DNA from: a virus
Lineage: Duplodnaviria > Heunggongvirae > Uroviricota > Caudoviricetes
Strand: one strand, 5' to 3'
Virus record (IMG/VR): IMGVR_UViG_3300047444_000753
Coordinates: 5,256 to 69,255 of that record
DNA: 64,000 nt
Shown here: positions 1 to 59,095 of the stretch, in pieces
How positions within the stretch are numbered: position 1 is the first letter of the stretch
Layout: each line of letters begins with the position of its first letter
Program-made: the position numbers and the translations under genes
Notes under the pieces: generated by a model
What the model was told of the DNA's origin: nothing
Databases searched by the model: none
The model's input: the letters and a program-made list of their open reading frames with translations, nothing else

Positions 1-353
1 TCGTTGAGAAACTTGGTGAACCTGCTTTGCGGATTCCGCTGAAGAGCGCGGACGCAGCAGAATTCACGGTTGCTGAGGAATTCGTCCTGATTGTCCCGAC
101 ATACGGGGCCAACGGCAAGGATTTCGTCCCAAAGCAGGTCATCAAATTTCTAAACAACATCAATAATCGTACCCTAATCCGGGGGGTCATAGGCACCGGG
201 AACCGTAACTTTTTGGAGGATTACGCCAAAAGTGGTAGGATCATAAGTGAGAAATGCCGCGTACCGCTGCTGTATACATTTGAGCTAGCCGGTATGGATG
301 AAGACGTAACGAACGTCAAAAGAGGACTGGAAAAGTTTTGGGAAACAAAGTAA
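1..353 (+). CDS. nrdI: NrdI flavodoxin-like protein (5' end cut by window)
   Basis: ORF is open to the window start and overlaps the nrdE start by 16 nt (338 vs 353). NrdI-like sequence (FVLIVPTYG..., GTGNRNF). Confidence 0.8.
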
Positions 354-2479
354 CCGAAGAGTCGTATATCGACCTCAATTCAAAGCTGAACCTTTGGACA
401 GACGACCACAAGATTGACTTCGAGGCGGACAAGGAAGCTGCTCGGCAGTACCACCTGCAGGAAGTCAACCGCAAATTCATGTACCACCCCTCCCTTGAGG
501 AAAAGCTGGACTACCTGTTTGTCAACGGGTACTACGACAAGAGCGTCTGGGACAAGTACGACGACGCGGAGATCAAGGATCTCTACAAGTACGCCTACGG
601 ATTCAAGCACCGCTTCACGTCGTTCCTTGGTGCCATGAAGTTCTACACGGCCTATGCCATGAAGTCCTTCGACGGCGAGACATGGATGGAGCGCTTCGAG
701 GACCGCGTTGTGGCTGTGGCTCTGGAGCTTGCCAATGGCAATTCGGAAGAGGCACGCCGGATCATCGAGGAGATCATCACCGGACGCCTGCAGCCCGCCA
801 CGCCGACCTTTGCCAACTGCGGTAAGATGCAGCGCGGCGAGCGTGTCTCCTGCTTCCTGATCGACATTCAGGACTCAATGAACTCCATCGGGCGTGCCGT
901 GAACACCGGCCTGCAGCTGTCCAAGCGTGGCGGCGGTGTCGGATTCAACATCTCCAACCTGCGTGAATTCGGTGCCCCGATCAAGCAGCTGGAGAACATG
1001 GCATCCGGTGTTCTGCCGGTCTGCAAGCTCTTCGATGACGCCTTCTCCTACGCCAACCAGCTGGGCTCCCGTCAGGGTGCCTGTGCCGTCTACATCTCCG
1101 CCCACCACCCGGACGTGTTCCGCGTGCTGGATGCGAAGAAGGAGAACGCTGATGAGAAGTCGCGCCTCAAGACGCTGTCAATCGGTCTAGTCCTCACGGA
1201 CAAGCTCTACGAGCTGGCCAAGAATGACGAGGTGCTCTACCAGTTTTCCCCGTACGACGTGGAGCGCTTCTACGGCGTACCGTTCTCCAAGGTGGACATC
1301 ACCGCCGAGTACGACAACATGGTTGACAACGCGGCCATCCGGAAGTACAAGCACAAGGACTACCCCAAGGCCCGTGACCTGTTCCAGCTGATCGCGGAGA
1401 TCCAGTTCGAGTCCGGCTACCCGTACATCCTCAACATTGACACTGTCAACCGCGCAAATCCTATTGCGGGTACGATTGATATGTCCAACCTCTGCTCCGA
1501 GATTGTACAGGTCTCCACCCCCTCCGTGCTGCGTGATGACCTCTCCTACGAGGAAGAGGGCCGGGACATTTCCTGCAACCTTGCTTCCATGAACGTCAAG
1601 TACGCCATGGATGGCGGCAACCTCGCCCAGACGGTCGAGACGGCTGTGCGCCTGCTGACCGAGGTCTCCGACATCACGTCGATCGATTCGGTTCCGTCTG
1701 TGCGCAATGGTAACGACAAATCGCACTCCATCGGACTGGGCCAGTTCGGCCTTCACCAATTTTTTATCACCGAAGGCATGCAGTATGGTGATGAGGACTC
1801 GCTTGACTTCACCAACATCTACTTCATGACTGTGGCTTTCCATGCCCTACGGGCATCATGCAAGTTGGCAGCGGAACGTGGGAAGCGTTTCTACGAATTC
1901 GAGAAATCAAAGTACGCGGATCCAGCCTACTTGACGGAGAAGTACTCCGATCCGTCCATGGTGGTGCCCAATGACAACACTGTGGCAATTTTCGAGAAAT
2001 ACGGCATTTGGATTCCGAACGAAGACAGCTGGGCTAACCTTGCAGAAGAAATTGCTGAGCACGGCCTCTATAACGCTTATCTCATGGCAGTGCCCCCGAC
2101 CGGATCCATCTCCTACGTCAACGGCGGGACGGCGTCCATCCACCCGTCTGTGGCCGCTGTGGAGATCCGCAAGGAGGGCAAGATCGGACGCGTGGCCTAC
2201 GCTACTCCGGGACTGACCAATGAGAACTACGCGGACTTCAAGGACGCCTACGATCTTGGCTGGCGTGCCGTTATCGACGTATATGCTGCTGCGCAGCCGC
2301 ACGTGGATCAGGCCATGTCGCTGACCCTGTTCTATACGAACCAAGACAGTACAAGGACCTTGAATCAGGCATACATTTACGCGTGGCGAAAAGGAATCAA
2401 GTCTCTTTACTACGCAAGGGTACGTAGTGACGCTCTTGAGGGTGCTGACGAATCCCAATGTGTCTCATGTACATTGTAG
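338..2479 (+). CDS. nrdE: Ribonucleotide reductase class Ib alpha subunit
   Basis: 713 aa with conserved NrdE blocks ([37 protein letters not shown]). Confidence 0.95.
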
Positions 2480-3221
2480 TGTTTTGGTAATCTACGGTTT
2501 ACGACTTTCAACCTGCTCTGAGTATAGGTATGTGGGGCTTACCACAAAAACTGCTCAGAGCAGGTTGAAAGGGCATATAAAGAGAACGAATAACCCTAAC
2601 CAGAAAAACTATCCTGTCAATGATTGGATAGCCAAGCATGGTAGCGATATGATAGTGGTTGATGTCCTGCAAGAGCTTATTGACCAGCCTTACGATGAAC
2701 TACTGCTAGCTGAAATTTATTGGATCAGTAAATTGCGTTTGGAAGGTAACCATCTTTTAAACATTGCCGAAGGCGGCAAAAGTTCTAAAGGCCACAAGTG
2801 GACTGAAGAGCGAAGAAAGATAGTGTCCGAGCGGATGAGGGGGAATACCTATGCAAAAGGTTGGCCCCAGCCGCGAGGCCCCAAGCACTCTGAATGGCAG
2901 AAGCGTAAGTGGTCTGAAGAACGTTCCGGAAGTATTACCGGTGAGCTAAACCCTAATTTTGGTAAATTCGGAGAGGATCACCCGGCATATGGACGAACTT
3001 TTTCTGAAGAGGCTCTAAAGAAAATTTCGGATGCAAAGAAGGGATCGAAAAATCCTAACTACGGCAAAGAAATGACGCAGGCGGAAAAAGATCTACGTTC
3101 TGCAGCACTTAAGGGCGTCCCTCAACCGAAGAATGCCTCCAATGCACATAAGAGACATCACACTAATAAAGGGGTTTCCAAGCCGGAAACCTGTAGGTAC
3201 TGTAAGGAAGAAAACGACTAA
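2427..3221 (+). CDS. GIY-YIG homing endonuclease with NUMOD3-like repeats (free-standing HEG)
   Basis: VIYGL...RYVGLT...R..GH motif, then repeated NPNYGK/NPNFGK/GNTYAKG modules. AT-rich (about 42% GC) compared with its neighbours. True start is probably TTG 2484; the annotated 5' end overlaps the nrdE stop. Confidence 0.8.
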   Translation: MTLLRVLTNPNVSHVHCSVLVIYGLRLSTCSEYRYVGLTTKTAQSRLKGHIKRTNNPNQKNYPVNDWIAKHGSDMIVVDVLQELIDQPYDELLLAEIYWISKLRLEGNHLLNIAEGGKSSKGHKWTEERRKIVSERMRGNTYAKGWPQPRGPKHSEWQKRKWSEERSGSITGELNPNFGKFGEDHPAYGRTFSEEALKKISDAKKGSKNPNYGKEMTQAEKDLRSAALKGVPQPKNASNAHKRHHTNKGVSKPETCRYCKEEND

Positions 3222-4165
3222 TGGTCAAAGCGATCAACTGGAATAACGTTCCAGATTTTGAGAAAAGTATCTGGAATAAGCTCACTGAGAACTTCTGGCT
3301 GCCAGAGAAGGTACCGCTATCCAACGACCTCCAGTCGTGGGGCAAGATGACGGACCACGAGAAGGAGACCACCATCAAGGTCTTCGCCGGTCTGACGTTC
3401 CTTGACACCATCCAAGGTACTACTGGGGCCGTCTCCCTGATGAAGGACGCCGGTAACCCCTTCGAAGAGGCCATTTACGCCAACATGTGCTTCATGGAGG
3501 TAGTGCACGCCAAATCCTACTCCTCCATCTTCTCCACGCTCTGCTCCACCAAAGAAATCGATGAGGTTTTCCGCTGGACCGAGGAAAATGACCAGCTGCA
3601 GTTCAAGGCCAACACGGTGCTTGAATACTACGAGGGCACTGACCCGATGAAGAAGAAGATCGCCTCCACCATGCTGGAAGGCTTCCTCTTCTACTCCGGC
3701 TTCTACCTTCCGCTGTACTGGTCTTCACGCCAGAAGCTGACCAACACCGCCGACCTGATCCGGCTCATCCTGCGCGACGAGGGGGTCCACTCCTACATGA
3801 TCGGCCAGTGGTTCCAGCGGGACCTCGCCATGTACCCGGCAGAGGTTCAGGCTGAATACAAGCAGTTCGCCTACGACCTACTCTTCGACCTCTACGAGAA
3901 CGAAGTTGAGTATACACAGGACCTCTACGACGGACTGGGCCTCACCGAGGACGTCAAGATGTTCCTGCGCTACAACGCCAACAAGTCCCTGATGAACCTC
4001 GGCTTCGATCCGCTGTTCCCCAAGGACCAGACCAACGTCAGCCCCGCCATCCTGTCGGCACTCTCCACCAACTCCGGAGAGAACCACGACTTCTTCTCGG
4101 GATCGGGATCCAGCTATGTCATCGGCAAGGTCGAGGAGAGCACGGACGAAGACTGGGATTTCTGA
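3221..4165 (+). CDS. nrdF: Ribonucleotide reductase class Ib beta subunit
   Basis: 314 aa di-iron R2 fold motifs (FWLPEKV, EVVHAKSYS, RDEGVH). Confidence 0.95.
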   Translation: MVKAINWNNVPDFEKSIWNKLTENFWLPEKVPLSNDLQSWGKMTDHEKETTIKVFAGLTFLDTIQGTTGAVSLMKDAGNPFEEAIYANMCFMEVVHAKSYSSIFSTLCSTKEIDEVFRWTEENDQLQFKANTVLEYYEGTDPMKKKIASTMLEGFLFYSGFYLPLYWSSRQKLTNTADLIRLILRDEGVHSYMIGQWFQRDLAMYPAEVQAEYKQFAYDLLFDLYENEVEYTQDLYDGLGLTEDVKMFLRYNANKSLMNLGFDPLFPKDQTNVSPAILSALSTNSGENHDFFSGSGSSYVIGKVEESTDEDWDF

Positions 4166-8762: not shown

Positions 8763-9497
8763 ATGACCAAGCTCAACCAGATCATCGCCATTGAAGGCGG
8801 ACTCAAGAACACTTCCAAGCGCGATATCACCGACGCTTACCACAAGATCCAGCGCACCACGAGCCTCAACGGCATCTCCCGTACCTACAAGCCCAAGGAC
8901 GAAGAGGGCGACCAGCTCCCGTCCGAAAGCACCCTCGTGCAGACCCGTGTTGAGGACGTACTCACCGAGGTCTCCGACTCCCTGACCCGACTCTTCGATG
9001 TCACCCTGACCAAGGAGACCGCCAACGGCTCGGCCAAGGCCGATGTCGTCGTGGACGGCAAGGTCATCGTCAAGGACGCCCCGGTCACCTACCTGCTCTT
9101 CCTTGAGAAGCAGCTCGTTGATCTGAAGACCTTCGTCGCGGCCCTCCCGACGCTGGATCCGGCAGAAGTCTGGAACCAGAACACTGCAACCGGCGACTGG
9201 GCCACCGAGGTCACTCAGACGGTGAAGACCAAGAAGATCCCGAAGAACTGGGAGAAGTCTCCGGCAACGGACAAGCACCCGGCACAGGTCGAGATCTTCC
9301 ACGAAGACGTCATCGTCGGCACGTGGAGCACCACCAAGTTCTCCGGTGCCCTGCCCCGTGAGCGCCGCAATGCGCTCCTGACCCGCGTCGATGACCTGCT
9401 GACCGCAGTCAAGTTTGCCCGCGAGGATGCAAACTCCACCACGGTCACCGATGTCGCGACCGGCAAGAAAGTTTTCGACTTCCTGTTTTCAGCGTAG
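8763..9497 (+). CDS. hypothetical protein (244 aa)
   Basis: AAGGAA RBS. No recognisable motifs. Confidence 0.7.
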   Translation: MTKLNQIIAIEGGLKNTSKRDITDAYHKIQRTTSLNGISRTYKPKDEEGDQLPSESTLVQTRVEDVLTEVSDSLTRLFDVTLTKETANGSAKADVVVDGKVIVKDAPVTYLLFLEKQLVDLKTFVAALPTLDPAEVWNQNTATGDWATEVTQTVKTKKIPKNWEKSPATDKHPAQVEIFHEDVIVGTWSTTKFSGALPRERRNALLTRVDDLLTAVKFAREDANSTTVTDVATGKKVFDFLFSA

Positions 9498-9575
9498 TCG
9501 AACAAGAATCCCCGTTGAGCGCGGGGTAGGTGCCATGCGGCACCCAAACTGAAACTGACGATTCAGATTCAAAAT

Positions 9576-9650
9576 AGCTCTCAGTGGTGGTTCGAGTCCA
9601 CCCCCTCCGACCAATCAACGGAGGGTAGCCCAAATGGTAGAGGCAGGCTC
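9576..9650 (+). other. permuted tRNA-like element: 3' half (T-arm + acceptor 3' strand + encoded ACCA), then a 5-nt linker, then 5' half (acceptor 5' strand + D-arm)
   Basis: GGTGG/TTCGAGT/CCACC + CCCTCCG + A + CCA at 9581–9611, then ATCAA, then CGGAGGG-TA-GCCC...GGGC at 9617–9645. The two acceptor strands pair 7 of 7 but in inverted gene order. Confidence 0.35.
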
Positions 9651-9729
9651 TTAGATTCAGATTATCGCTCTAGATTCAGAAGCTTCACGCTAGACTGATC
9701 GACCGTATACACGCCTTAGCTTTGAAATA

Positions 9730-9810
9730 AGGGTTCGATTCCCTTCCCGGCCTCTGTGTCCTAGACACTGTTTCACCCAAATGGCCGGGTGGCATAATGG
9801 TAATGCGCAA
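9730..9810 (+). other. second permuted tRNA-like element (T-arm + 3' acceptor upstream of the cognate 5' acceptor + D-arm)
   Basis: AAGGG/TTCGATT/CCCTT + CCCGGCC at 9730–9753. About 30 nt later comes GGCCGGG-TG-GCAT/AATGGTA/ATGC at 9784–9807. The acceptor strands pair 7 of 7. Confidence 0.3.
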
Positions 9811-9922
9811 ACTTCTTAAATTGATGTGTATACTTAAATGTGCAGTAGACTAGCATAATGTGGCTATAAACACTCAATCGAAGAGCGGCGGGAGCCGGAT
9901 ATGCTCCCGTCGCTCGCCACAT

Positions 9923-9994
9923 ATCCCTGTAGCTCAGTGGTAGAGCATCGGCATGACTCGCCGTGCGTCGGAGGTTCGAATCCTCTCGGGGATA
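9923..9994 (+). tRNA. tRNA-Val (GAC) (atypical position 37)
   Basis: D-arm GCTC/GAGC, anticodon stem TCGGC/GCCGT with loop ATGACTC, T-arm GGAGG/TTCGAAT/CCTCT, acceptor ATCCCTG/CGGGGAT. Confidence 0.55.
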
Positions 9995-10022
9995 CACAGA
10001 GACAGTTACTACGAAGGACGCT

Positions 10023-10475
10023 ATGTCGGATTACTCAGACTCTATCGCAATTATGTTCCCGGCGAATTACCCGGACGATAGGGCCGATCCGCACTGCACC
10101 CTGATCTGGCTGGGAGAAACTACCAGCTTCATGTTCTCCAAGGAGGACGTGCTGGCCGTTCTGAAGGCCGATGACTACACCCCGAACGACGAATACACCC
10201 CTCTCCCGCCCAAGATCTTCGGCAAGGATGACGAGCGCGTGGTCGTTCTCCCGCTCGATGATGCGGACGGCTCCCTGCAGGCCCTGCGTGACAAGCTAGA
10301 GAAGGCTCTGGGAGCCCTCGGGATCCAGTCCCCGTCCGAATACACCACCTATGTCCCACACGTGACCACAGAGGACTACGTCCCCGGCGTCACCAAGATG
10401 GCCAACTACCCGGTGCCGGACAAGATCAAGCTGGGCGCTGCCGAGCTCTGGTGGGGCGACGAGCGAGTCTCATAA
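10023..10475 (+). CDS. 2H phosphoesterase superfamily protein (LigT / 2'-5' RNA ligase-like or Acb1-like cyclic-nucleotide phosphodiesterase)
   Basis: 150 aa with the two H-x-T/S-x motifs of the 2H fold (HCTLIW and HVTT). GAAGGA RBS. Sits directly after a tRNA. Confidence 0.65.
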   Translation: MSDYSDSIAIMFPANYPDDRADPHCTLIWLGETTSFMFSKEDVLAVLKADDYTPNDEYTPLPPKIFGKDDERVVVLPLDDADGSLQALRDKLEKALGALGIQSPSEYTTYVPHVTTEDYVPGVTKMANYPVPDKIKLGAAELWWGDERVS

Positions 10476-10528
10476 AACGTAATACACCATGATAAAATAG
10501 TGGGACGCCCCACTATCAAGGATTTATC

Positions 10529-10924
10529 ATGGCACTTGTCGGACCCAACGCTGTCCCGGACTACACATACAAGGCAACCGTCGATAGGTGGGTGGACGGG
10601 GATACTGTCTGGCTCACCGTCGATCTCGGTTTCCGCTTCACAATGAACTCCGATTTCCGTCTCTACGGAATCAACACCCCGGAACACAACCAGCCCGGAT
10701 TTCATGAGGCCACAGCCTTTGCGGAAGCCCACGCACCGGCAGGGTCCCCCGTAGTCATCCGCAGCTACAAGGACCCTGACAAATATGGTCGCTGGATCGT
10801 ACAGATCTTCGTCGGCGGCACGGTTCTCGTCGGCCAGACGGACCTAAACGATGCCCTCGTGGCCAGCGGACTGGCTGTCCCATACTTCGGTGGAACCAAG
10901 GCTCCCGTAGCTACTGCAAAGTAG
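10529..10924 (+). CDS. SNase-like (thermonuclease family) nuclease
   Basis: RLYGINTPE motif and D..D/W pattern typical of the staphylococcal nuclease fold. Confidence 0.65.
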   Translation: MALVGPNAVPDYTYKATVDRWVDGDTVWLTVDLGFRFTMNSDFRLYGINTPEHNQPGFHEATAFAEAHAPAGSPVVIRSYKDPDKYGRWIVQIFVGGTVLVGQTDLNDALVASGLAVPYFGGTKAPVATAK

Positions 10925-10995
10925 ATAGTCTATCAGACAATGTCCAGATAAATCAAGGTAGAATGGTTATACACCATCTATTTTTGGAGATCCTT

Positions 10996-12699
10996 ATGGG
11001 ATACATCTGGCCAGTCAATGCTAGCATCAGTCAGGAATTCGGCGCTCTGCCGAACAACGGCTTCAACCCCTCCGGAGGGCACACAGGGCGCGACTTCGCG
11101 GTCTCTGTCGGCACGCCCATCCACGCAATCGGGGATGGTGTAGTCAAGGCTGTCGGACAGCTCACTGGCCTGTACAGTGACAACCCGTGGTGGATCATGC
11201 CGTCATGGGCCGGAAACATCGTCGTCATTGACCACGGCCCGATCCTGTCTATCTATGCCCACCTCTCGGCATGGAACGTCAACGTCGGAGACCGCGTCAC
11301 ACAGGGCGAAATCATCTGCCACTCCGGAGCATCGGGTGGGGCCTCAACGGGGCCTCACCTTCACTTCGAGATCATGCCGGACGGCTGGAACTTCGGCAAC
11401 GGCACCTATGGCCGCGTGAACCCGTCCCTCTACTGCAGCGGCTTCGCATCCAACGCCCTCGCGGGAAACCAGCGCATCGTCGGAAAGTACGGCGTCAACC
11501 AGCGTGCGTCTGCGTCGGCCACCGGCAAGGTCATGAACAACTTCGCTGCCGGTCTGGTGCTCGACTTCAAGGGTTATGTCCACGGCGAGACGGTCAACGG
11601 GACCAATATCTGGTTCGTCGGGGCACACACTGGCGGATACTTCTCAGCATCGGCCTTCGATGACGGAAGCGTCAACGGTCTGGCAAACCTCACCCCCGCA
11701 CCTGCGGCACCGGCCCTGAAGCCAAACCAGCGCATCACTTCGGAACCGGCAAATCAGCGCAGCGCCCCATCCACTTCCGCCCAGATCGTGAAGACCTTCG
11801 ATGCGGGTGTCATCCTTGACTTCAAGGGATTCACTCGCGCCGAAAACATCGGCGGAAACTACATGTGGTTCGTTGGTGCCTACTCAGATACCTACTTCTG
11901 GTCCGGCAACTTCAACGACAAGTCCGTAACCGGACTTGCGGATCTGACACCTAAGCCAGCTCCTGCCCCAGCACCAGCCCCTAAGCCTGTGCCAGCTCCT
12001 GCGCCTGCGCCGAACCCTACACCGGCTCCAGCGCCTGCACCTGTCCCTGCGCCGACACCGGCCCCACAGAACACCGGAGCATACTCCTTCACACCGGACT
12101 TCGACTTTGTTGAGTACCACCCAGCGGACATCAATAACGTCCGTCTCGGGGACTTCCCGGCCAACCCGGACCATGCGGTGATCCACCAGTTCGGCACACC
12201 GGGCGTGGACACCATCGGCAGCACGATCAACCAGTTCACGAACCCGAACCTCGGGCTCAAGGCTGTCTCGGCCCACTTCGTGGTTTCCGGGAACCGTATT
12301 GTTCAAATGGTATCACTAAAGGACCGTGCGTACCACGCCTACGTCGTTGGCAACAACTACGTCGGCATCGAGACGGACCCGAATCAGGATCCGGCCACCA
12401 TTGCGTCGGTAAACAAGCTGCTCCGCGCCCTCAAGGCCAAGTTCGGATACACACTCACTACGATCCGTCACAAGGACGTCCCGCAGTGTGTCACCAACTG
12501 TGGAGCCCTGATCAATCTCGCCAACTACCAGATTGATGCGCCTACTCCGGCCCCTGCACCGACCCCCACACCGGCTCCGGTGCCCACCCCTACACCAGCA
12601 CCTGTATCTACTGACCTGACAGTAGATCAGAAGCTCAAGGTCATCGCTGAATACCAGCAGTGGCAGCTAGATGCATGGAAACTGTATCTAGAAAAGTAA
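10996..12699 (+). CDS. endolysin (lysin A-like): M23 peptidase + two cell-wall-binding repeats + amidase_2/PGRP domain, joined by Pro/Ala-rich linkers
   Basis: M23 motifs HTGRDFAV...D and HLHFEI. A duplicated domain (VLDFKG...NIWFVGA). Amidase-like block AHFVVSGN...YHA...GIET. GGAGA RBS. No esterase-type lysin B is visible in the window, which would fit a non-mycolata actinobacterial host. Confidence 0.85.
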   Translation: MGYIWPVNASISQEFGALPNNGFNPSGGHTGRDFAVSVGTPIHAIGDGVVKAVGQLTGLYSDNPWWIMPSWAGNIVVIDHGPILSIYAHLSAWNVNVGDRVTQGEIICHSGASGGASTGPHLHFEIMPDGWNFGNGTYGRVNPSLYCSGFASNALAGNQRIVGKYGVNQRASASATGKVMNNFAAGLVLDFKGYVHGETVNGTNIWFVGAHTGGYFSASAFDDGSVNGLANLTPAPAAPALKPNQRITSEPANQRSAPSTSAQIVKTFDAGVILDFKGFTRAENIGGNYMWFVGAYSDTYFWSGNFNDKSVTGLADLTPKPAPAPAPAPKPVPAPAPAPNPTPAPAPAPVPAPTPAPQNTGAYSFTPDFDFVEYHPADINNVRLGDFPANPDHAVIHQFGTPGVDTIGSTINQFTNPNLGLKAVSAHFVVSGNRIVQMVSLKDRAYHAYVVGNNYVGIETDPNQDPATIASVNKLLRALKAKFGYTLTTIRHKDVPQCVTNCGALINLANYQIDAPTPAPAPTPTPAPVPTPTPAPVSTDLTVDQKLKVIAEYQQWQLDAWKLYLEK

Positions 12700-13617: not shown

Positions 13618-14331
13618 GTGAATGACATACTGACACCCTTCTGGACCCGTCCGCTGTGCGCCCTCGACACGGAGACCACCGGAGTTGATTCGTTCAACGA
13701 CCGGATAGTCACCTGTTCCATGATTTACGATGATGGACGAGGAAACCAGACCGAACGGGACTGGCTCATAAACCCCGGCGTCGAGATACCCACGGGTGCA
13801 TCCGACGTGCACGGCATCACCAATGAAGTTGCCCAGCGGGACGGCATGGAGCCCCAAAAAGGCATCTACGAAATTGCCACCTCGCTCTACCAGATGGTCA
13901 GTGCTGGTGTTCCGCTGGTGGTCTACAATGCACCCTTTGACCTCACCCTGCTGATCGCCGAGTTCCGGCGTTGGGGTATCGGCTGGGATCCTGTGTTCAA
14001 CAAGGTCATCGATCCTCTTGTGATCGACAAGGCCGTGGACAAGTACCGAAAGGGCAGTCGCAAGCTCATCGACACTGCCAAGCACTACGGCTACGACCTC
14101 ACCAACGCCCACGCGGCAGATGCGGACAACAAGGCGGCTATCCACATTGCCCGCCATATCTTCCCGGCCCACTTCACACCGGACACGACGCTGGAAGAGG
14201 TCCACCAGCTGCAGATCGGCTGGAAGGCGGCACAGGCCCGGAGCTTCCAAGCGTATCTGCGCAAGGAGAAGGACCCAGAGGCCGTCATCAATCAGGAATG
14301 GCCCGTCATGACAACACAGGAGAACCGATGA
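13618..14331 (+). CDS. DnaQ-like 3'-5' exonuclease (DEDDh family)
   Basis: Exo I ALDTETTG, Exo II YNAPFD, Exo III H..ADADNKAA. GTG start. Confidence 0.8.
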   Translation: MNDILTPFWTRPLCALDTETTGVDSFNDRIVTCSMIYDDGRGNQTERDWLINPGVEIPTGASDVHGITNEVAQRDGMEPQKGIYEIATSLYQMVSAGVPLVVYNAPFDLTLLIAEFRRWGIGWDPVFNKVIDPLVIDKAVDKYRKGSRKLIDTAKHYGYDLTNAHAADADNKAAIHIARHIFPAHFTPDTTLEEVHQLQIGWKAAQARSFQAYLRKEKDPEAVINQEWPVMTTQENR

Positions 14332-16244: not shown

Positions 16245-16319
16245 GGCCCTGTGGTCCAGCTTGGAATGGACGCCTCCCTGTCACGGAGGAGATCGACGGT
16301 TCAAATCCGTTCAGGGTCG
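16245..16319 (+). tRNA. tRNA-Asp (GTC)
   Basis: Acceptor GGCCCTG/CAGGGTC, anticodon stem CCTCC/GGAGG with loop CTGTCAC. Confidence 0.8.
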
Positions 16320-16321
16320 CT

Positions 16322-16392
16322 GTGGCTATAGCTCAATGGTAGAGCGGCTGGTTGTGGTCCAGCATATGAGGGTTCAATTCCCTCTAGTCACC
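16322..16392 (+). tRNA. tRNA-His (GTG)
   Basis: Anticodon stem GCTGG/CCAGC with loop TTGTGGT. T-arm GAGGG/TTCAATT/CCCTC. Confidence 0.8.
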
Positions 16393-16393
16393 C

Positions 16394-19056: not shown

Positions 19057-19085
19057 TTGCACACTGATGTTTAGGTGTGTATAGT
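19057..19085 (+). promoter_or_regulatory. promoter TTGCAC-17-TATAGT
   Basis: Near-consensus -35 and -10. Upstream of the rIIA-like gene. Confidence 0.55.
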
Positions 19086-19124
19086 AGTTACTACAAGACA
19101 TACCAACGACAAAAGGACAAAGAA

Positions 19125-21260
19125 ATGATCATTGAGGCCAGCAAGAACGAAACCACCATCGTCTCCAACATCACTGTTGGCGAGGTGATCGAGATGACCG
19201 TCAGTGAAGCAGGCATGGCGTACGCAATGAGCGCGCTGTCCAACATGTACAACGACCCCAAGCTGGCAGTTATCCGTGAGTACTTCACGAATGCTCTGGA
19301 CTCCCACACCAAGGCCGGACAGACGGATCCGGTGCTGGTCAGCCTGCCGACCAACTACAACAAGATGTATGTTGTACAGGATTTCGGCGTCGGCATGGAC
19401 ATTGACACCATCCGGTCGGTCTACTCCAAGTACTGGGAGTCCACCAAGCGCGACTCGAACACCCAGATCGGCGCTTTCGGTCTTGGAGCCAAGTCGGCTC
19501 TGGCCATCGCCAACCAGTTCACGCTGGCCTCGGTAAAAGACGGTGTAAAGGTCACCGTGATCGTGCAGAAGGCAGGGGACGGTTCCGGCAAGCCTAAGAT
19601 GCTTGTGGTGTCCGCCATCGAAACCGATGAGCCCAACGGCGTCATGATCTCCATCCCGATCGATGACCCTTACACCTTCAACAACAAGGCCCGGGAATTC
19701 TTCCGCTTCGTGGATCCGGAACTGGTGCTCGTTGACGGCTACAAGCCCTCCTCGGTCTTCGATTCTGTGAAGCGTCTGGAGGACATCTCCGTCCCCGATG
19801 TAGACATCTACGTTGATCTGGACAACAGGTACGGCACCTCCTACGTCATCATGGGTCAGGTGGCCTACGCCCTGACCACCTCCAACATCGAAGAGGCTGC
19901 CGAGCGTCTGGGGATCTCCGCCAGCTACGAACTGCGCAGCATGCCGGTCTACTTCAAGGTCGGCATCGGCGATGTGAACCTGACCCCGAACCGCGAAGGC
20001 TTGCTCTTCGATGACAAGACCAACGCACTGATCGACTCCGTCATTGAAGCCTACTTGGAGACGGTCAAGAAGACGGCACAGGAGGAAATCGACGCGATCG
20101 AGAGCCGCTTCGATGTCTACTCGGTGGCCGAACGCTGGTCCGACCGTCTGGGTGTCAAGCTGGAATGGCGCGGGGAGAAAATCCGCACCAAGATCGGCAC
20201 GGCAGAGCCCTCCAGCACCATCAAGCGCACCTCATGGGACAAGTCCACCCACGGCAGCACGTACGATGTCAATGTCAAGGACCTCTCCACCAAGAAGATC
20301 ATCGTCACCGGCAAGCCGTTCGACAAGTACAAGCGGATGGCCAACTACATCACGGACTACTTGGCCATGATGGACATCAATAACGGTGCCAACTTCTACT
20401 TCCGCGAAAACTTGGATGAGCTGGACAACGAATGGGTTACCGAAAACCCGGCGTTCATCTTCGAGGACTTCGAGGATATGATCCAGCGCGTCAAGGACCA
20501 CCGGAAGGCCGAAAAGGCAGCTGCCAAGGCTCTGCTCCCGAAGGAGCTGCGGGACCGTCCGGCCAAGCTGGAGTACCCGGTGCTGGATATCGATGACAAA
20601 ACCCTCACCCGCACTGCCTACGACGCCATCCCTGCAGGATCCTTCTACATCCACGCTAATGATGTTGTGGACCCGGCAAAGCACAAGGACTTCTTCGAAG
20701 GCATCTACGCATCGCCCGGATACGTGGAATACCTGAAGGACATTGTGGGGGAGGGTGCAACGGTGGTCTTCATCTCCAAGGTCCGTTCGCTCGAATCCTT
20801 CAAGGCCCGCACAAAGGACATCCACGGCCTGCGTAGCATCCACGACGCCCTTCCTGATGTTCAGGAGCGCATCAACGAGCTCATGACCGATGATGTTCTG
20901 CGTGCCCGCAACCTGCGGCTCACACACACTGCTAACCGCAACCTCGCACGCCTCAGCCCCAAACTGATCGCGCAGATTCTGGATGACGAAGTGCGCGAAC
21001 AGCTGACCCCTGCGGACCCGGCACTGCTTGAGCAGGGTAACGCCGCTGTCTCGCTCTTCAGCTCCGTAATCCGCTTCGGTATCGCCCCGACCACCGTAAC
21101 ACTGCCGGAACTGGCAGAGGAGGCTGTGGAACTGGACACGTCGGATAAGTACCCGCTCACCGAGCTGCTCGGGATCTGGCCGAGCGAGGCTGCGCAGAAG
21201 GACATCATCCGCTACATGAACATGGTCTACACCGAGCAGTTGACACTTGTAGATGCATAA
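19125..21260 (+). CDS. rIIA: RIIA-like protein with N-terminal GHKL (HATPase_c) ATPase domain
   Basis: Bergerat-fold motifs: N-box EYFTNALDS, G1 DFGVGMD, G2 GAFGLGAKS. 711 aa (from ATG 19125), similar to T4 rIIA (725 aa). Followed by an rIIB-like gene. Confidence 0.7.
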   Translation: MIIEASKNETTIVSNITVGEVIEMTVSEAGMAYAMSALSNMYNDPKLAVIREYFTNALDSHTKAGQTDPVLVSLPTNYNKMYVVQDFGVGMDIDTIRSVYSKYWESTKRDSNTQIGAFGLGAKSALAIANQFTLASVKDGVKVTVIVQKAGDGSGKPKMLVVSAIETDEPNGVMISIPIDDPYTFNNKAREFFRFVDPELVLVDGYKPSSVFDSVKRLEDISVPDVDIYVDLDNRYGTSYVIMGQVAYALTTSNIEEAAERLGISASYELRSMPVYFKVGIGDVNLTPNREGLLFDDKTNALIDSVIEAYLETVKKTAQEEIDAIESRFDVYSVAERWSDRLGVKLEWRGEKIRTKIGTAEPSSTIKRTSWDKSTHGSTYDVNVKDLSTKKIIVTGKPFDKYKRMANYITDYLAMMDINNGANFYFRENLDELDNEWVTENPAFIFEDFEDMIQRVKDHRKAEKAAAKALLPKELRDRPAKLEYPVLDIDDKTLTRTAYDAIPAGSFYIHANDVVDPAKHKDFFEGIYASPGYVEYLKDIVGEGATVVFISKVRSLESFKARTKDIHGLRSIHDALPDVQERINELMTDDVLRARNLRLTHTANRNLARLSPKLIAQILDDEVREQLTPADPALLEQGNAAVSLFSSVIRFGIAPTTVTLPELAEEAVELDTSDKYPLTELLGIWPSEAAQKDIIRYMNMVYTEQLTLVDA

Positions 21261-21311
21261 CAAACCTGCTAAACTGATATTACTCAACCACCAACGACAA
21301 AAGGACTCGAA

Positions 21312-22448
21312 ATGACAATGTTTTCCATGGCCGGTACGACTCCGGATCGCACCCTCTCGGTTATCTATGCCACTGGCGACACCGCCACCATCCCGGAATC
21401 GCACGACCGCTTCGAAGAGCTCCTTACCCTGCTCTTCTCGGGGGCCGAAGACGAAGAGGTCGGCGATCTCGTAGATGTGATGCTGGCTGTCACCAAGAGG
21501 ATGGCCCAGCTCTCCGAACGCGTCAGCATCCGTGGTCGCTCGGTCTACTTCGACGGAGACCAGCTGCGCGGCGAACTCGCTGACGTTCTCGTGGAGATCT
21601 TCGAGACCGGAAACCCAGAGTCCCTGCGCCCGGTGGTCAACTTCCTTGAGAAGGCCGCGACCAACCCATCCCGCCAGTCGGTCGATGACCTCTACCGCTG
21701 GATCACCAAGGGTGATCTCATCATCCACGAGGACGGCGACTTCCTTGCCTACAAGGGCACCCGCACCACGAAGGATGGAACCCGCACCTCGATCAACGAG
21801 GGAACGGCATTCGTGGACGGCGTGGAAGTCACCGGACACATCCCCAACCCGGACGGTGCTGTCGTCACGATGCCGCGTTCGGAGGTGGATGACAACTCCA
21901 TGGAAGGCTGCTCCACCGGACTGCACGCCGGTACTGCGGACTACGCGTTTGGATTCGCTTGGTCCGAGACGGTTCTGGTCAAGATCAACCCCCGTGACGT
22001 TGTGTCGGTCCCGACAGACTCCTCCAACCAGAAGCTGCGCGTCTGCCGCTACGTGGTTCAGGGCAAGGTCGAGGAGCGCCGCACCAGCCGGGTCTTCCGC
22101 GAGCCGGTTGCGGATGGGGTCACTGCGCCCCTGTTCACCGTGATCGGCTTCGACGTCTTCGATGCCAACGAAGATGACGGCGAGCTGGAGGTCGATGGGT
22201 CGATCGAAGAGTCCACGCTCGATGACTCGGTCCAGACTGACGAGGAGCGTCTGGCAAGCGAGGAGGCCCTTGCGGCTCTCCGCGAGAAGCTGCAGGATCT
22301 GCAGACTCCGCCGCAGAGCGAGGCCGAGGCAGAAGCTGAGGCCGAAGCTGCCGAAAAGGTCATCCGTGACGCCAAGGGCCGCTTCACCAGCGAGAGCGCG
22401 GCGAAGGCAGTCCGCAACGCCAAGGGACAGTTTACAAGGCAGTCCTAG
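21312..22448 (+). CDS. rIIB: RIIB-like protein
   Basis: Follows the rIIA-like gene. Acidic EAEAEA C-terminal tail. AAAGGA RBS. Confidence 0.55.
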   Translation: MTMFSMAGTTPDRTLSVIYATGDTATIPESHDRFEELLTLLFSGAEDEEVGDLVDVMLAVTKRMAQLSERVSIRGRSVYFDGDQLRGELADVLVEIFETGNPESLRPVVNFLEKAATNPSRQSVDDLYRWITKGDLIIHEDGDFLAYKGTRTTKDGTRTSINEGTAFVDGVEVTGHIPNPDGAVVTMPRSEVDDNSMEGCSTGLHAGTADYAFGFAWSETVLVKINPRDVVSVPTDSSNQKLRVCRYVVQGKVEERRTSRVFREPVADGVTAPLFTVIGFDVFDANEDDGELEVDGSIEESTLDDSVQTDEERLASEEALAALREKLQDLQTPPQSEAEAEAEAEAAEKVIRDAKGRFTSESAAKAVRNAKGQFTRQS

Positions 22449-22459
22449 TCGTATACAAT

Positions 22460-22497
22460 AGAAGCACCACTCCTACAGGGGTGGTGCTTCTATTTTG
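22460..22497 (+). terminator. rho-independent terminator
   Basis: 11-bp stem AGAAGCACCAC/GTGGTGCTTCT followed by ATTTTG. Confidence 0.75.
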
Positions 22498-22568
22498 CCT
22501 ACATCGTCCAAGGGATAGGGCGACAGCCTCCTAAGCTGTAAATTCTGGTTCGAGTCCAGATGTAGGTA
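22497..22568 (+). tRNA. tRNA-Arg (CCT)
   Basis: Acceptor GCCTACA/TGTAGGT, D-arm GTCC/GGGC, anticodon stem ACAGC/GCTGT with loop CTCCTAA, T-arm TCTGG/TTCGAGT/CCAGA. Confidence 0.75.
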
Positions 22569-22569
22569 C

Positions 22570-23073
22570 ATGATCAACATATATCAAGACGTAGACGGTG
22601 TCCTTAGCCCCTTCTCCAAGGGTGCCCCGAGGACAAACACCATGTGGAAGGGCGAGTGGCGCACGGAGCGTATAGCAGGCTTTGACATGCTGTGGTCCGT
22701 AGAGCTCATCGACGCCCTGAAGGAGCTCGACAACCGGGAGGATGTCAAGTTCATCTGGCTCACCTCATGGGAGGACATGGCGGTCGAATTCTTCGCCCCC
22801 GTGGTCGGTATCGGCGCAGACTGGCCGGTACTCTCCTCCAACGACGCACAGGACGATCTCAAGACGTGGTGGAAGCTGCGTGCGATCCACGAGCACATCG
22901 CCGCAACAGCACCGGAAAAAGCTGTCTGGCTGGATGACGACATCAACTACGATGTCGGCGGAAAGACGTTCGTACAAGAGATGGGTGACAGCTTGCTGGC
23001 CGTCAACCCCAACCGAAACCATGGACTGACTGTAAAGCACCTCAAGAGGATACAGGAATTCATTGACAACTAG
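22570..23073 (+). CDS. HAD-superfamily hydrolase/phosphatase-like protein
   Basis: N-terminal DVDGVL (HAD motif I, DxDG). Starts 2 nt after the tRNA. Confidence 0.5.
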   Translation: MINIYQDVDGVLSPFSKGAPRTNTMWKGEWRTERIAGFDMLWSVELIDALKELDNREDVKFIWLTSWEDMAVEFFAPVVGIGADWPVLSSNDAQDDLKTWWKLRAIHEHIAATAPEKAVWLDDDINYDVGGKTFVQEMGDSLLAVNPNRNHGLTVKHLKRIQEFIDN

Positions 23074-24476: not shown

Positions 24477-24983
24477 ATGATTCAGATCAATGTTGGCTGC
24501 GGAGAATTCCGTGCTGAAGGCTGGCTCAACGTAGACATCTACAGCGGAGACGAAGGCCCTCAGCCTGACATCATCGCTTCCGCCGATGACCTGCCGTTTG
24601 GCAGCGGTACCGTGGACCGGATCTACGCCGGACATATCCTTGAGCACATCGAGCTGAGCAAGGTTCCAAAGATCCTCCGGGAGTTCAAGCGTGTCCTCTC
24701 ACCCACTGGAGGTCTCCTTGTGGTCGGCCCTGATCTAGACCGCGCTGAGGTTGACTTCCCTGAAGAGGTCGAGCTGATCAAGACGGGCGGTCACCGCTGG
24801 CCCGGGGACGCACATCTCTGGGAGAGCCGGGAATCCACCATGCTGGCACTGCTAGTCACTGGCGGCTGGGATGTCGCTACAGCTGACGTACATGAGGTAT
24901 ATTCTTCCGGGACGTGGCCGGTAACCAGTGGTGTCGGCTGGCAGTTTGCAATTTTTGCAACAAAGCTCCCAGAGGTGGCCTGA
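24477..24983 (+). CDS. class I SAM-dependent methyltransferase
   Basis: Motif I VGCGEF and DLPF acidic loop. 168 aa. Confidence 0.65.
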   Translation: MIQINVGCGEFRAEGWLNVDIYSGDEGPQPDIIASADDLPFGSGTVDRIYAGHILEHIELSKVPKILREFKRVLSPTGGLLVVGPDLDRAEVDFPEEVELIKTGGHRWPGDAHLWESRESTMLALLVTGGWDVATADVHEVYSSGTWPVTSGVGWQFAIFATKLPEVA

Positions 24984-24984
24984 C

Positions 24985-59054: not shown

Positions 59055-59092
59055 ACTGGCCGTCACCGAAAGGTGGCGGTCAGTTTTGTTTG
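59055..59092 (+). terminator. rho-independent terminator
   Basis: Stem ACTGGCCGTCACC / GAAA loop / GGTGGCGGTCAGT, then TTTGTTT. Confidence 0.75.
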
Positions 59093-59095
59093 GGC

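What the first reader, a model, noticed from the sequence alone, without database searches (positions are those of the whole stretch)
9923..10924. Compact 2H-phosphoesterase (Acb1/LigT-like) plus SNase-like nuclease directly after the tRNA set: candidate anti-signalling or tRNA-repair module
The 150-aa protein at 10023–10475 carries the two H-x-T/S-x motifs of the 2H phosphoesterase fold. That fold includes LigT 2'-5' RNA ligases and cyclic phosphodiesterases, and also phage Acb1, which degrades CBASS cyclic-oligonucleotide signals and is about the same size. It begins 28 nt after a tRNA and is followed by an SNase-fold nuclease. Two hypotheses follow. (i) It heals tRNAs cut by host anticodon nucleases, which would fit a phage carrying its own tRNAs. 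(ii) It destroys cyclic-nucleotide immune second messengers.
Basis: partly seen in the sequence, partly recalled or inferred. Interest (0 to 1): 0.7.

Follow-up and report, generated by a model that had tools for sequence, protein, structure and literature searches.

The report
Stand-alone phage 2H phosphoesterase gene
The gene really encodes a small two-histidine (2H) phosphodiesterase sitting among a large phage's tRNA genes, but it belongs to neither the Acb1 nor the LigT/ThpR family, is not paired with the neighbouring nuclease, and sequence analysis cannot tell whether it heals cut RNA ends or destroys immune signal nucleotides.

Summary

- The protein belongs to a compact 2H clade (about 114 cluster representatives) found only in uncultured viral sequence. 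It is absent from 50,697 phage records and 185,579 genomes.
- It fails the ThpR test: the essential HxTxxR arginine is missing and TIGR02258 scores 25 against a cut-off of 65.7.
- The SNase gene is a backbone gene ahead of the endolysin. Arthrobacter phage Racecar has it without any 2H gene, and some relatives carry a PLD-like nuclease in its place. This is not a two-gene module.

Context leans weakly towards RNA end healing. The gene lies in a tRNA and Y-RNA-like island, and sister phages add Ro60, RNA ligase or a CCA-adding enzyme. I put that at about 0.4 and an Acb1-like anti-signalling role at about 0.33. It is a new member of a known kind, of moderate interest.

The parts
10023..10475 (+). 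Gene for a 150-aa stand-alone 2H phosphoesterase of a compact clade seen only in uncultured viral sequence (the 'LWWG' clade)
10092..10115 (+). Motif 1: H24-C-T26-L-I-W29-L-G31, i.e. HxTxx[aromatic]LG. This is the proposed general-acid His plus a base-stacking aromatic residue.
   Evidence: H24, T26 and G31 are invariant and position 29 is Y/F/W in 60 of 66. It matches the ThpR extended motif HxTxxF (PMC4201822).
10359..10370 (+). Motif 2: H113-V-T115-T, the proposed general-base His. It is followed by E-D, so the Arg of the ThpR motif HxTxxR is absent.
   Evidence: H113 is invariant and T115 is T or S in 66 of 66. Position 118 is E/K/P/D/S and never R among the listed residues.
10446..10457 (+). 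C-terminal L142-W143-W144-G145 signature of the clade, on a predicted terminal beta-strand
   Evidence: W143 in 65 of 66, W144 in 62 of 66, G145 in 57 of 66. Strands E141-144 and E147-149 in the model.
10013..10018 (+). Shine-Dalgarno-like GAAGGA, 4 nt before the ATG
   Evidence: Read from the sequence.
9923..9995 (+). tRNA-Val(GAC), 27 nt upstream. The same tRNA precedes the 2H gene in L001, L002, L003, L005, L006 and L007.
   Evidence: ARAGORN and Rfam.
9555..9674 (+). Context: Y-RNA-like (YrlA-like) tRNA-mimic element in a highly conserved spacer. A second T-arm/D-arm-like unit lies at about 9707-9812.
   Evidence: RF02553 at 22.1 bits, E 0.031, below the gathering score of 69. The spacer is 90% identical among four phages. 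Seven of 10 stem pairs show compensatory changes. Equivalent hits occur in Racecar, GodonK, L011 and L032.
10497..10516 (+). 8-bp GC-rich hairpin (ATAGTGGG-ACGC-CCCACTAT) between the 2H and SNase genes, with no T-run
   Evidence: Read from the sequence. The terminator scan did not call it.
10529..10924 (+). Neighbour, not a partner: SNase-like nuclease (131 aa), a backbone gene ahead of the endolysin
   Evidence: PF00565 at 33.6 bits and phrog_452 at 9e-28. Active-site alignment. An orthologue, gp147, is in Racecar, which has no 2H gene.
22570..23073 (+). Possible downstream partner (inferred): HAD phosphatase of the 'Swiss Army Knife' RNA-repair type. It starts at the base after tRNA-Arg(CCT).
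   Evidence: PF18143 HAD_SAK_2 at 33.4 bits, cut-off 27.5. A DVDGV motif is at residues 7-11.

Best explanation
Shown:
- The gene encodes a catalytically intact-looking, metal-independent 2H phosphoesterase. It belongs to a compact clade found only in viral and metagenomic sequence.
- It is an accessory gene. It is present in the window's clade and in L032 but missing from the nearest cultured relative, the 194-kb Arthrobacter phage Racecar.
- It lies inside the phage's tRNA and Y-RNA-like island.

Inferred, most likely role: RNA 3'-end healing.
- His24 and His113, helped by Thr26 and Thr115, open the 2',3'-cyclic phosphate that host metal-independent ribonucleases (anticodon nucleases, toxin RNases) leave on tRNAs or tRNA-like RNAs. 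Trp29 and Phe12 would hold the terminal nucleotide, as Phe48 and Phe8 do in E. coli ThpR.
- The resulting phosphomonoester would then be removed by a phosphatase. Candidates in the window are HAD_SAK_2 (22570-23073) and the metallophosphatase homologue (54070-54630).
- The healed end could then be used by a CCA-adding enzyme or a ligase supplied by the host or encoded outside the window.

The SNase-like gene next door is not part of this.
For: Fold and active site.

Sequence and structure ties to CPDases:
- The best sequence ties are to LigT-type cyclic phosphodiesterases. The family profile matches PH0099 at E 2e-8 and P. furiosus 2fyh at 1e-7, against Acb1 at 0.073.
- PF13563 is hit by 50 of 66 members. 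The only NCBIfam hit is TIGR02258.
- The ThpR nucleotide-holding aromatics are conserved: HxTxx[YFW] and the beta-1 aromatic.

Context:
- The 2H gene sits inside tRNA arrays in five lineages: the window clade, L032, L011, L008 and L053.
- Within 2-9 kb of it lie other RNA-handling genes. L008 has an Rnl1-type RNA ligase, a CCA-adding enzyme, a Macro domain and a metallophosphatase. L032 has a Racecar-gp161-type RNA ligase and Ro60/TROVE. L011 has TROVE, YrlA-like RNA and cREC. L028 has a CCA-adding enzyme.
- In the window a YrlA-like RNA lies directly upstream.
- The window also encodes HAD_SAK_2, plus Macro and metallophosphatase homologues of the L008 genes.

Against: - The Arg of HxTxxR is absent from the whole clade. 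R130A abolishes ThpR activity.
- No RNA ligase, polynucleotide kinase or CCA-adding enzyme was found in the 64-kb window. The site where Racecar and L032 carry an RNA ligase, between tRNA-Asp and tRNA-His, is empty here: the two tRNAs are at 16245-16320 and 16322-16393.
- Racecar has the ligase but no 2H gene, so the two do not co-vary.
- Many family members sit in smaller phages among early or replication genes with 0-1 tRNA and no ligase nearby.
- tRNA islands in these phages also hold lysins and other unrelated genes, so position is weak evidence.
- A 2'-phosphate product would also need a Tpt1/KptA step, which was not searched for.
Confidence: 0.4

Rival explanations
1. Anti-signalling nuclease that works like Acb1 but is not an Acb1 family member. 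The 2H site cleaves 3'-5' (or 2'-5') bonds of host cyclic oligonucleotide second messengers from CBASS or type III CRISPR, through a 2',3'-cyclic intermediate. This disarms abortive-infection effectors.
For: - The protein is compact (150 aa against 152 aa for Acb1), stand-alone, virus-only and patchily present, like an accessory counter-defence gene.
- The motif-2 block of the family consensus, F-P-D-Y-R-P-H-V-T, is residue for residue the FBB1 Acb1 block Y-P-D-Y-R-P-H-I-T. The Acb1 base-stackers W74 and F107 align with the conserved F66 and F/Y107.
- 19 of 66 members hit Pfam Acb1 weakly. 27 of 66 hit phrog_755, which is the T4 Acb1 family.
- Local hhalign of the family against an Acb1 alignment gives 91% probability, against 85% for ThpR.
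- The closest viral structure models are 2H domains fused to MuF or capsid-morphogenesis proteins of actinophages, with TM 0.68-0.74 (also L009). Those are predicted to be injected against nucleotide signals (PMC9503650).
- Many members stand alone in small phages without RNA-repair genes.
- A relative, L001, carries an Acb2/Tad1-type sponge gene in the same tRNA island.
- T4 acb1 also lies beside tRNA genes.
Against: - The window protein itself gives no hit to PF23474 or phrog_755. BLASTP to T4 Acb1 gives E 0.03.
- The order of secondary-structure elements in the N-terminal lobe differs. Here the helix follows motif 1. In Acb1, read from its sequence, the helix precedes it.
- The protein ends 6 residues after the WW strand, so there is no counterpart of the Acb1 lid 145-152 with W147.
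- Nothing is known about signalling defences in the unknown host.
Confidence: 0.33
2. Processing of small cyclic-phosphate metabolites rather than RNA ends. Two candidate substrates: ADP-ribose 1'',2''-cyclic phosphate from KptA/Tpt1-type reactions, working with the Macro-domain protein; or 2',3'-cNMPs and short oligonucleotides released during host nucleic-acid breakdown, as nucleotide salvage alongside the neighbouring nuclease and the RNR genes.
For: - A Macro-domain gene is in the window (45089-45613). Its homologue sits 1.1 kb from the 2H gene in L008.
- 2H enzymes such as Cpd1 and Arabidopsis CPDase act on Appr>p (PMC4201822; PMC9503650).
- A non-specific nuclease, SNase or a PLD-like replacement, lies near the 2H gene in the window clade, L032 and L039.
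- RNR genes lie upstream.
Against: - The Macro protein looks like a DarG-type DNA de-ADP-ribosylase (NF048014, 66 bits) rather than a Poa1-type enzyme.
- No KptA was identified.
- SNase is known to yield 3'-phosphates without cyclic intermediates (own knowledge), so it creates no 2H substrate.
- SNase occurs without 2H in Racecar.
Confidence: 0.15
3. The protein binds nucleotides or RNA without turnover, or is a decaying accessory gene of no current function.
For: The ThpR-type Arg is missing. Pfam and NCBIfam scores are below threshold.
Against: - Both His and both Thr are invariant or nearly so across proteins down to 26% identity, together with about ten further positions.
- Codon bias is intact and the start is conserved.
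- Other active 2H enzymes also lack that Arg: Acb1, CNPase, Usb1 and AKAP18.
Confidence: 0.05

Closest known systems
LigT/ThpR-type RNA 2',3'-cyclic phosphodiesterases (E. coli ThpR; Pyrococcus PH0099, PDB 1vdx/1vgj; D. radiodurans CPDase)
   Same: - Motif 1 is HxTxx[aromatic]-L-G followed by a helix.
- Aromatic residue in beta-1.
- P-H-[VI]-T in motif 2.
   Different: - 150 aa against 171-184 aa. There is no helix between beta-1 and motif 1.
- The essential Arg of HxTxxR is absent.
- Scores fall below TIGR02258 (25.3 against 65.7) and PF13563 (24.1 against 27).
- The clade has a C-terminal LWWG signature and was found only in viral and metagenomic sequence.
Acb1 anti-CBASS nuclease (T4 gp57B; Erwinia phage FBB1, PDB 7t26/7t27; PF23474; phrog_755)
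   Same: - Phage-encoded, about 150 aa, stand-alone, with an HxT/HxT tetrad.
- Shared [FY]-P-D-Y-x-P-H-[IV]-T block.
- Conserved aromatics at the positions of Acb1 W74 and F107.
- Lies near tRNA genes in T4 as well.
   Different: - No significant pairwise similarity (E 0.03) and no PF23474 or phrog_755 hit for the window protein.
- The N-lobe elements are in a different order.
- There is no C-terminal lid.
- Motif 1 is LigT-like (HCTLIWLG against HSTICYSR).
Viral 2',5'-phosphodiesterases (rotavirus VP3 C-terminal domain 4ye2/4rpt/5af2; MHV ns2; AKAP7) and penguinpox cGAMP PDE (9bkq)
   Different: 12-19% identity, from eukaryotic viruses. Their substrates, 2-5A and 2'3'-cGAMP, are not known signals in Actinobacteria. 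No sequence-level match was detected.
2H domains at the C-termini of MuF, portal or capsid-morphogenesis 'polyvalent' proteins of actinophages (Gordonia, Microbacterium and Rhodococcus phages; phrog_2659 and phrog_18402)
   Same: They are the closest viral structure models, with TM 0.68-0.74 normalised to the query. L009 carries such a fusion that matches the family. Fusion proteins also appear among the profile hits (P0115-P0117).
   Different: Those are domains of 550-1100-aa virion proteins. Here the 2H protein is free-standing and sits in a tRNA island.
T4-type tRNA repair (Pnkp + Rnl1) and 'Swiss Army Knife' RNA repair proteins (2H-SAK and HAD-SAK domains)
   Same: A 2H enzyme and a HAD_SAK_2 phosphatase are both encoded in the window, each directly after a tRNA gene. 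Relatives add an Rnl1-type ligase.
   Different: The genes are separate and 12 kb apart. There is no kinase or ligase in the window. T4 itself heals ends with the HAD-type Pnkp, not with a 2H enzyme.

Membership tests
2H phosphoesterase superfamily | Two H-x-T/S-x motifs, one in each lobe | tested here: met
   HCTL at 24-27 and HVTT at 113-116. H24, T26 and H113 are invariant and T115 is T or S in 66 of 66.
2H phosphoesterase superfamily | Two-lobed alpha+beta 2H fold | tested here: met
   [not shown]
ThpR/LigT subfamily (RNA 2',3'-cyclic phosphodiesterase) | Extended proximal motif HxTxxF (stacking aromatic) | tested here: met
   H24-C-T-L-I-W29. The position is Y/F/W in 60 of 66 family members.
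ThpR/LigT subfamily (RNA 2',3'-cyclic phosphodiesterase) | Extended distal motif HxTxxR (essential Arg130) | tested here: not met
   The sequence is H113-V-T-T-E-D118. The family column is E/K/P/D/S, never R among the listed residues.
ThpR/LigT subfamily (RNA 2',3'-cyclic phosphodiesterase) | Score above the curated model cut-offs (TIGR02258, PF13563, PF02834) | tested here: not met
   TIGR02258 scores 25.3 against 65.7. PF13563 scores 24.1 against 27. PF02834 scores 12 against 23.3.
ThpR/LigT subfamily (RNA 2',3'-cyclic phosphodiesterase) | Hydrolysis of RNA>p to RNA 2'-phosphate | not testable with these tools
   Needs an enzyme assay.
Acb1 (anti-CBASS nuclease) | Sequence membership (PF23474 or phrog_755; similarity to T4 or FBB1 Acb1) | tested here: not met
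   The window protein gives no PF23474 or phrog_755 hit. BLASTP gives E 0.03. Profile against FBB1 gives E 0.073. Only weak sub-threshold hits occur, in 19 of 66 and 27 of 66 relatives.
Acb1 (anti-CBASS nuclease) | HxT/HxT catalytic tetrad | tested here: met
   H24, T26, H113 and T115.
Acb1 (anti-CBASS nuclease) | Four base-stacking aromatics (Y12, W74, F107, W147) and the adenine contact E141 | tested here: inconclusive
   F66 aligns with W74 and Y107 with F107 by hhalign. The beta-1 aromatic F12 matches only by eye. No aligned counterpart was found for W147 or E141.
Acb1 (anti-CBASS nuclease) | Flexible C-terminal lid (residues 145-152) that closes over the ligand | tested here: not met
   The protein ends at residue 150. 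Residues 141-149 are modelled as two beta-strands with pLDDT about 90.
Acb1 (anti-CBASS nuclease) | Cleavage of 3'3'-cGAMP, cA3 and related signals, and rescue from CBASS | not testable with these tools
   Needs biochemistry and plaque assays.
Phage tRNA repair pathway (healing plus sealing) | RNA ligase encoded with the healing enzyme | tested here: not met
   There is none in the window, by Pfam or PHROG scans of most ORFs of 120 aa or more (the six left unscanned are listed under what was tried) and by tblastn with four ligases. A ligase is present near the 2H gene in L008 and L032. The rest of the genome lies outside the window.
Phage tRNA repair pathway (healing plus sealing) | 5'-OH polynucleotide kinase and a 2'/3'-phosphatase | tested here: inconclusive
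   No kinase was found: T4 Pnkp by tblastn gives E > 0.1. Phosphatase candidates are HAD_SAK_2 at 22570-23073 and the metallophosphatase homologue at 54070-54630. KptA/Tpt1 was not searched for.
Staphylococcal nuclease (SNase) family, for the neighbouring ORF 10529-10924 | Pfam cut-off and catalytic residues (D21, R35, D40, E43, R87) | tested here: met
   PF00565 scores 33.6 against 21. DGDT, FRLYGINTPE and DKYGR align with SNase. D40 is replaced by N.

The most novel reading that the evidence does not exclude
The 2H enzyme could be the catalytic arm of an undescribed, Ro60-independent phage RNA-surveillance cassette. The cassette would be DUF7873 protein, one or two YrlA-like tRNA-mimic RNAs, tRNA-Val and the 2H gene. 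DUF7873 would occupy the place that Ro60/TROVE holds next to YrlA-like RNAs in the sister phages L011 and L032. The 2H protein would trim or heal cyclic-phosphate ends of tRNAs or of the mimic RNAs.

A less exotic but still new reading is that this 'LWWG' clade is a second, Acb1-independent family of phage nucleases against cyclic-oligonucleotide signalling in Actinobacteria (probability about 0.3).
Probability: 0.1. Interest if true: 0.75.

Novelty: new member of a known kind. Interest (0 to 1): 0.35.

Why it matters
Phage 2H phosphoesterases sit at a real fork. The same small fold heals RNA ends in ThpR-type enzymes and destroys immune second messengers in Acb1, the poxvirus cGAMP phosphodiesterase and rotavirus VP3.

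This clade of about 114 cluster representatives is seen only in uncultured phages. It combines a LigT-like first motif with an Acb1-like second motif, so its substrate cannot be read from homology. One biochemical experiment would assign a function to the whole clade, and probably to the related 2H domains fused to actinophage virion proteins.
- If it cleaves cyclic oligonucleotides, it extends anti-CBASS or anti-type-III enzymes to Actinobacteria phages.
- If it is a cyclic phosphodiesterase, it adds a healing step to the idea that large phages carry their own tRNAs to survive tRNA-targeting defences.

As it stands the gene is an ordinary, plausible annotation: a 2H phosphoesterase of unknown substrate.

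Tried and rejected
- Near DNA match and tblastn of the 2H protein, and of three relatives, against 50,697 phage records gave nothing. P0017 gave only weak partial hits to Acb1-type 'RNA ligase' genes of Pseudomonas jumbo phages.
- phmmer of the single protein against PDB gave nothing. A profile was needed.
P0013 and P0024 as single queries found nothing.
- Two genome-contig scans found no cellular copy. The metagenome scan added only short contigs.
- The 2H-plus-SNase operon idea is rejected on synteny.
- Filing the protein as Acb1 or as ThpR is rejected. Both fail a defining feature (see the membership tests).
- The promoter and terminator scan around the gene showed nothing above shuffled expectation.
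- The search for RNA ligase, Pnkp, CCA-adding enzyme, TROVE and cREC in the window by tblastn was negative.
- The last large protein search, with E. coli ThpR, returned only close enterobacterial ThpR sequences. The ThpR profile used is therefore shallow, and the 85% against 91% comparison should not be over-read.
- PDB and literature searches for DUF7873 found nothing.
- Six + strand ORFs of about 120-155 aa were never scanned against any profile library: 24928-25395, 37100-37534, 51417-51794, 59086-59454, 62966-63343 and, at 116 aa, 52406-52756.
Full report
**What the window is.** The 64-kb window is 56.6% G+C with nearly all genes on the + strand. It carries 28 tRNA genes interspersed with protein genes.
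- Around the finding the order is: class I RNR (338-4165), tRNAs, DUF7873 (8763-9497), a 425-nt spacer, tRNA-Val(GAC) (9923-9995), the 2H ORF (10023-10475), an SNase-like ORF (10529-10924), an endolysin with M23 and amidase_2 domains (10963-12699), NlpC/P60 (12816-13514), an RNase_T-type exonuclease (13618-14331), more tRNAs, then rIIA- and rIIB-like genes.
- No phage record matches the DNA.
- The terminase is 64-65% identical, and DUF7873 58% identical, to the 192-194-kb Arthrobacter globiformis phages Atuin, Racecar, Mimi and Talia1610. The window therefore comes from an uncultured relative of that group.

**The observation.** The ORF, its start and the two motifs are as described.
- GAAGGA lies 4 nt before the ATG. 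Twelve homologues of 65-94% identity start at the same Met.
- H24-C-T26-L and H113-V-T115-T are invariant in those twelve. H24, T26 and H113 stay invariant across 66 members of 26-94% identity.
- An AlphaFold2 model built on the alignment has pLDDT 87 and pTM 0.80.
- The SNase call is sound. PF00565 scores 33.6 bits against a cut-off of 21, and phrog_452 gives E 9e-28. The counterparts of SNase D21, R35, E43, Y85 and R87 are present, and D40 is replaced by N.
- Two small corrections apply. The gap to the tRNA is 27 nt, and the gene lies inside the tRNA region, not after it.

**Which 2H protein it is.** An exhaustive profile search found 114 cluster representatives at E of 1e-3 or better. Most are 135-170 aa.
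- The clade signature is: [FYW]-P in beta-1; H-x-T-x-x-[YFW]-L-G; F-G; S-x-[FY]-x-x-[YF]-x-P-H-[VI]-T; and a C-terminal L-W-W-G-[DN]-[ED]-[RH].
- No member was found in 50,697 phage records or in one genome for each of 185,579 species. The clade is currently known only from viral and metagenomic contigs.

*Against the LigT/ThpR family.*
- The family profile's best solved relatives are PH0099 (E 2e-8) and its P. furiosus homologue (1e-7). PF13563 is hit by 50 of 66 members.
- The window protein nevertheless stays below every curated cut-off: PF13563 24.1 against 27, and TIGR02258 25.3 against 65.7.
- Remus et al. define the ThpR subfamily by HxTxxF and HxTxxR, and the R130A mutant is inert (PMC4201822). 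The first motif is kept here (W29). The Arg is absent from the whole clade.

*Against Acb1.*
- T4 gp57B is the seed of phrog_755, scoring 228 bits.
- Yet 19 of 66 relatives hit PF23474 weakly and 27 of 66 hit phrog_755 weakly.
- The family consensus F-P-D-Y-R-P-H-V-T equals the FBB1 Acb1 block Y-P-D-Y-R-P-H-I-T. F66 and F/Y107 align with the Acb1 base-stackers W74 and F107.
- Local hhalign gives 91% probability to a 7-sequence Acb1 alignment and 85% to a shallow ThpR alignment.

*Architecture.* The model goes straight from beta-1 to the motif-1 strand and puts a helix after it. In Acb1, judged from its sequence, the helix lies before motif 1, and there is a C-terminal lid that this protein is too short to have.

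*Verdict on family.* This is a separate, differently minimised 2H clade, roughly equidistant from ThpR and Acb1. Its first lobe is LigT-like and its second-lobe motif is Acb1-like. Its nearest viral structure models are 2H domains fused to MuF or capsid-morphogenesis proteins of Gordonia, Microbacterium and Rhodococcus phages, with TM 0.68-0.74. L009 is such a fusion.

**The SNase 'module'.**
- In L005 the two genes are adjacent, as in the window.
- In L001-L004 two small ORFs lie between them.
- In L006 and L007 the SNase gene is missing. A 216-aa ORF with HKD-like motifs, read from its sequence and probably a PLD/Nuc-type nuclease, fills the slot.
- In L032 the order is SNase then 2H.
- Racecar has the SNase orthologue gp147 ahead of its endolysin but has no 2H gene.
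- Most other family loci have no SNase gene within 10 kb.
- SNase is therefore a backbone gene of the block next to the lysis genes. The 2H gene is an accessory insert beside it. I found no sign of a functional pair.

**Context bearing on function.** In five lineages the 2H gene is embedded in tRNA arrays: the window clade, L032/L052, L011, L008 and L053.
- L008, from a 120-kb contig, has these genes within 6 kb of the 2H gene: a Macro domain, a CCA-adding enzyme, a metallophosphatase, an Rnl1-type RNA ligase (PF09511, E 4e-16) and a tmRNA.
- L032 has Ro60/TROVE and an RNA ligase 89% identical to Racecar gp161.
- L011 has TROVE, a YrlA-like RNA and a cREC domain.
- L028 has a CCA-adding enzyme 2 kb away.
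- The window encodes a HAD_SAK_2 phosphatase that starts at the base after tRNA-Arg(CCT). Its motif I is D-V-D-G-V. The window also has homologues of the L008 Macro and metallophosphatase genes.

Against a repair pathway:
- No ligase, kinase or CCA-adding enzyme was found in the window.
- The site where Racecar and L032 carry their ligase, between tRNA-Asp and tRNA-His, is empty here.
- Racecar has the ligase without a 2H gene.
- A large part of the clade sits in smaller phages among early or replication genes, with 0-1 tRNA nearby.
- T4 acb1 itself is 1.4 kb from the T4 tRNA cluster, so tRNA proximity does not discriminate.
- L001 carries an Acb2/Tad1-hairpin gene in the same island. These islands therefore also collect anti-signalling genes.

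**A side observation that colours the context.** The 425-nt 'non-coding' spacer just upstream (9498-9922) is 90% identical among four phages whose 2H proteins are only about 77% identical to the window's.
- It holds two tRNA-mimic units, each with a T-arm followed by a D-arm. The first gives a sub-threshold match to the Y-RNA-like family YrlA (22 bits, E 0.031, gathering score 69).
- Better sub-threshold YrlA matches lie directly after TROVE/Ro60 in L011 (41 bits, E 1e-5) and L032 (32 bits). They also lie directly after DUF7873 in Racecar (33 bits) and Gordonia phage GodonK (38 bits, E 2e-5).
- The stem joining the two boxes shows compensatory changes at 7 of 10 pairs.
- YrlA RNAs next to Ro60 in bacteria and mycobacteriophages are known (PMC4201824). 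A link to DUF7873 is not in the searched literature.
- This places the 2H gene in an RNA-handling neighbourhood. Racecar keeps the RNA element without the 2H gene, so the link is loose.

**Mechanism and verdict.**
- Shown: a conserved 2H active site in a well-predicted fold; restriction to viral sequence; accessory status; and the locations described above.
- Inferred: the substrate.
- I rank RNA 2',3'-cyclic-phosphate end healing first, at about 0.40. The grounds are the LigT-like sequence and structure ties, the conserved ThpR-type nucleotide-holding aromatics and the repeated RNA-repair neighbours.
- An Acb1-like attack on cyclic oligonucleotide signals comes second, at about 0.33. The grounds are the Acb1-like second motif, the stand-alone occurrence in small phages, the kinship to virion-fused 2H domains and the patchy distribution.
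- Processing of small cyclic-phosphate metabolites gets about 0.15. A non-catalytic or decaying gene gets about 0.05.
[quoted passage not shown] The finding is therefore a new member of a known kind, of moderate interest, and a simple substrate panel would settle it.

Noticed in passing
window 9498-9922: The spacer between DUF7873 and tRNA-Val is 90% identical in DNA among the window, L001, L005 and L007. It contains two permuted tRNA-mimic units, each with a T-arm followed by a D-arm. Unit 1 (9555-9674) gives a sub-threshold YrlA (Y-RNA-like) match, and its central stem covaries at 7 of 10 pairs. Unit 2 (about 9707-9812) folds similarly but is invariant.
   Followed up: partly
window 8763-9497; L050 9001-9735 and 9954-10085; L059 2501-3235 and 3492-3600; L011 1255-3149; L032 893-3001: YrlA-like elements lie directly after DUF7873 in the window, in Arthrobacter phage Racecar and in Gordonia phage GodonK. 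They lie directly after Ro60/TROVE in L011 and L032. DUF7873, which has no literature and no PDB relative, may therefore be a Y-RNA partner protein. GodonK gp151, a 129-nt reverse ORF, overlaps the RNA hit and looks spurious.
   Followed up: partly
window 22570-23073: A HAD phosphatase of the 'Swiss Army Knife' RNA-repair type (PF18143, 33 bits, DVDGV motif) starts at the base after tRNA-Arg(CCT) (22497-22569).
   Followed up: partly
window 45089-45613: A Macro-domain protein most similar to the DarG antitoxin macrodomain (NF048014, 66 bits, below cut-off). It could be a counter to DarT-type DNA ADP-ribosylation. A 40%-identical homologue lies beside the 2H gene in L008.
   Followed up: no
L001 4613-4777: A relative carries a 54-aa Acb2/Tad1-hairpin (PF24729) sponge-like gene inside the tRNA array. 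The window has no homologue.
   Followed up: partly
L007 8624-9274 (also L006): In these relatives the SNase slot between the 2H gene and the endolysin is filled by a 216-aa ORF with HKD-like motifs (HRKMVIVD...GSTNWS). This looks like non-orthologous replacement of one non-specific nuclease by another. It was read by eye and not tested against profiles.
   Followed up: partly
L050 16795-17763; window 16245-16393: Racecar and L032 carry a 322-aa RNA ligase (KIDG motif) between tRNA-Asp and tRNA-His. In the window and in L001, L005 and L007 these two tRNAs are adjacent and the ligase is absent.
   Followed up: yes
L011 12991-13375: A GOLLD RNA (RF02032, 210 bits, above the gathering score of 150) lies inside the tRNA array of this 2H-bearing phage contig.
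   Followed up: no
window 10497-10516: An 8-bp GC-rich hairpin with a 4-nt loop and no T-run lies between the 2H and SNase genes. This is the interval where L001-L004 carry two extra small ORFs.
   Followed up: no
L009 967-3333: A 788-aa ORF in a 70% G+C viral contig carries a C-terminal 2H domain (PF13563, residues 614-726). It is probably a virion-packaged polyvalent protein, like the BFVD top hits.
   Followed up: no
window 19077-22448 and 33349-34632: rIIA- and rIIB-like genes (phrog_612 and phrog_609) and a PIN-PhoH fusion protein are present in an actinophage-type genome.
   Followed up: no
window 54070-54630: A 186-aa protein with no Pfam hit is 37% identical (E 1e-25) to the L008 metallophosphatase that sits between the CCA-adding enzyme and the RNA ligase.
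   Followed up: no
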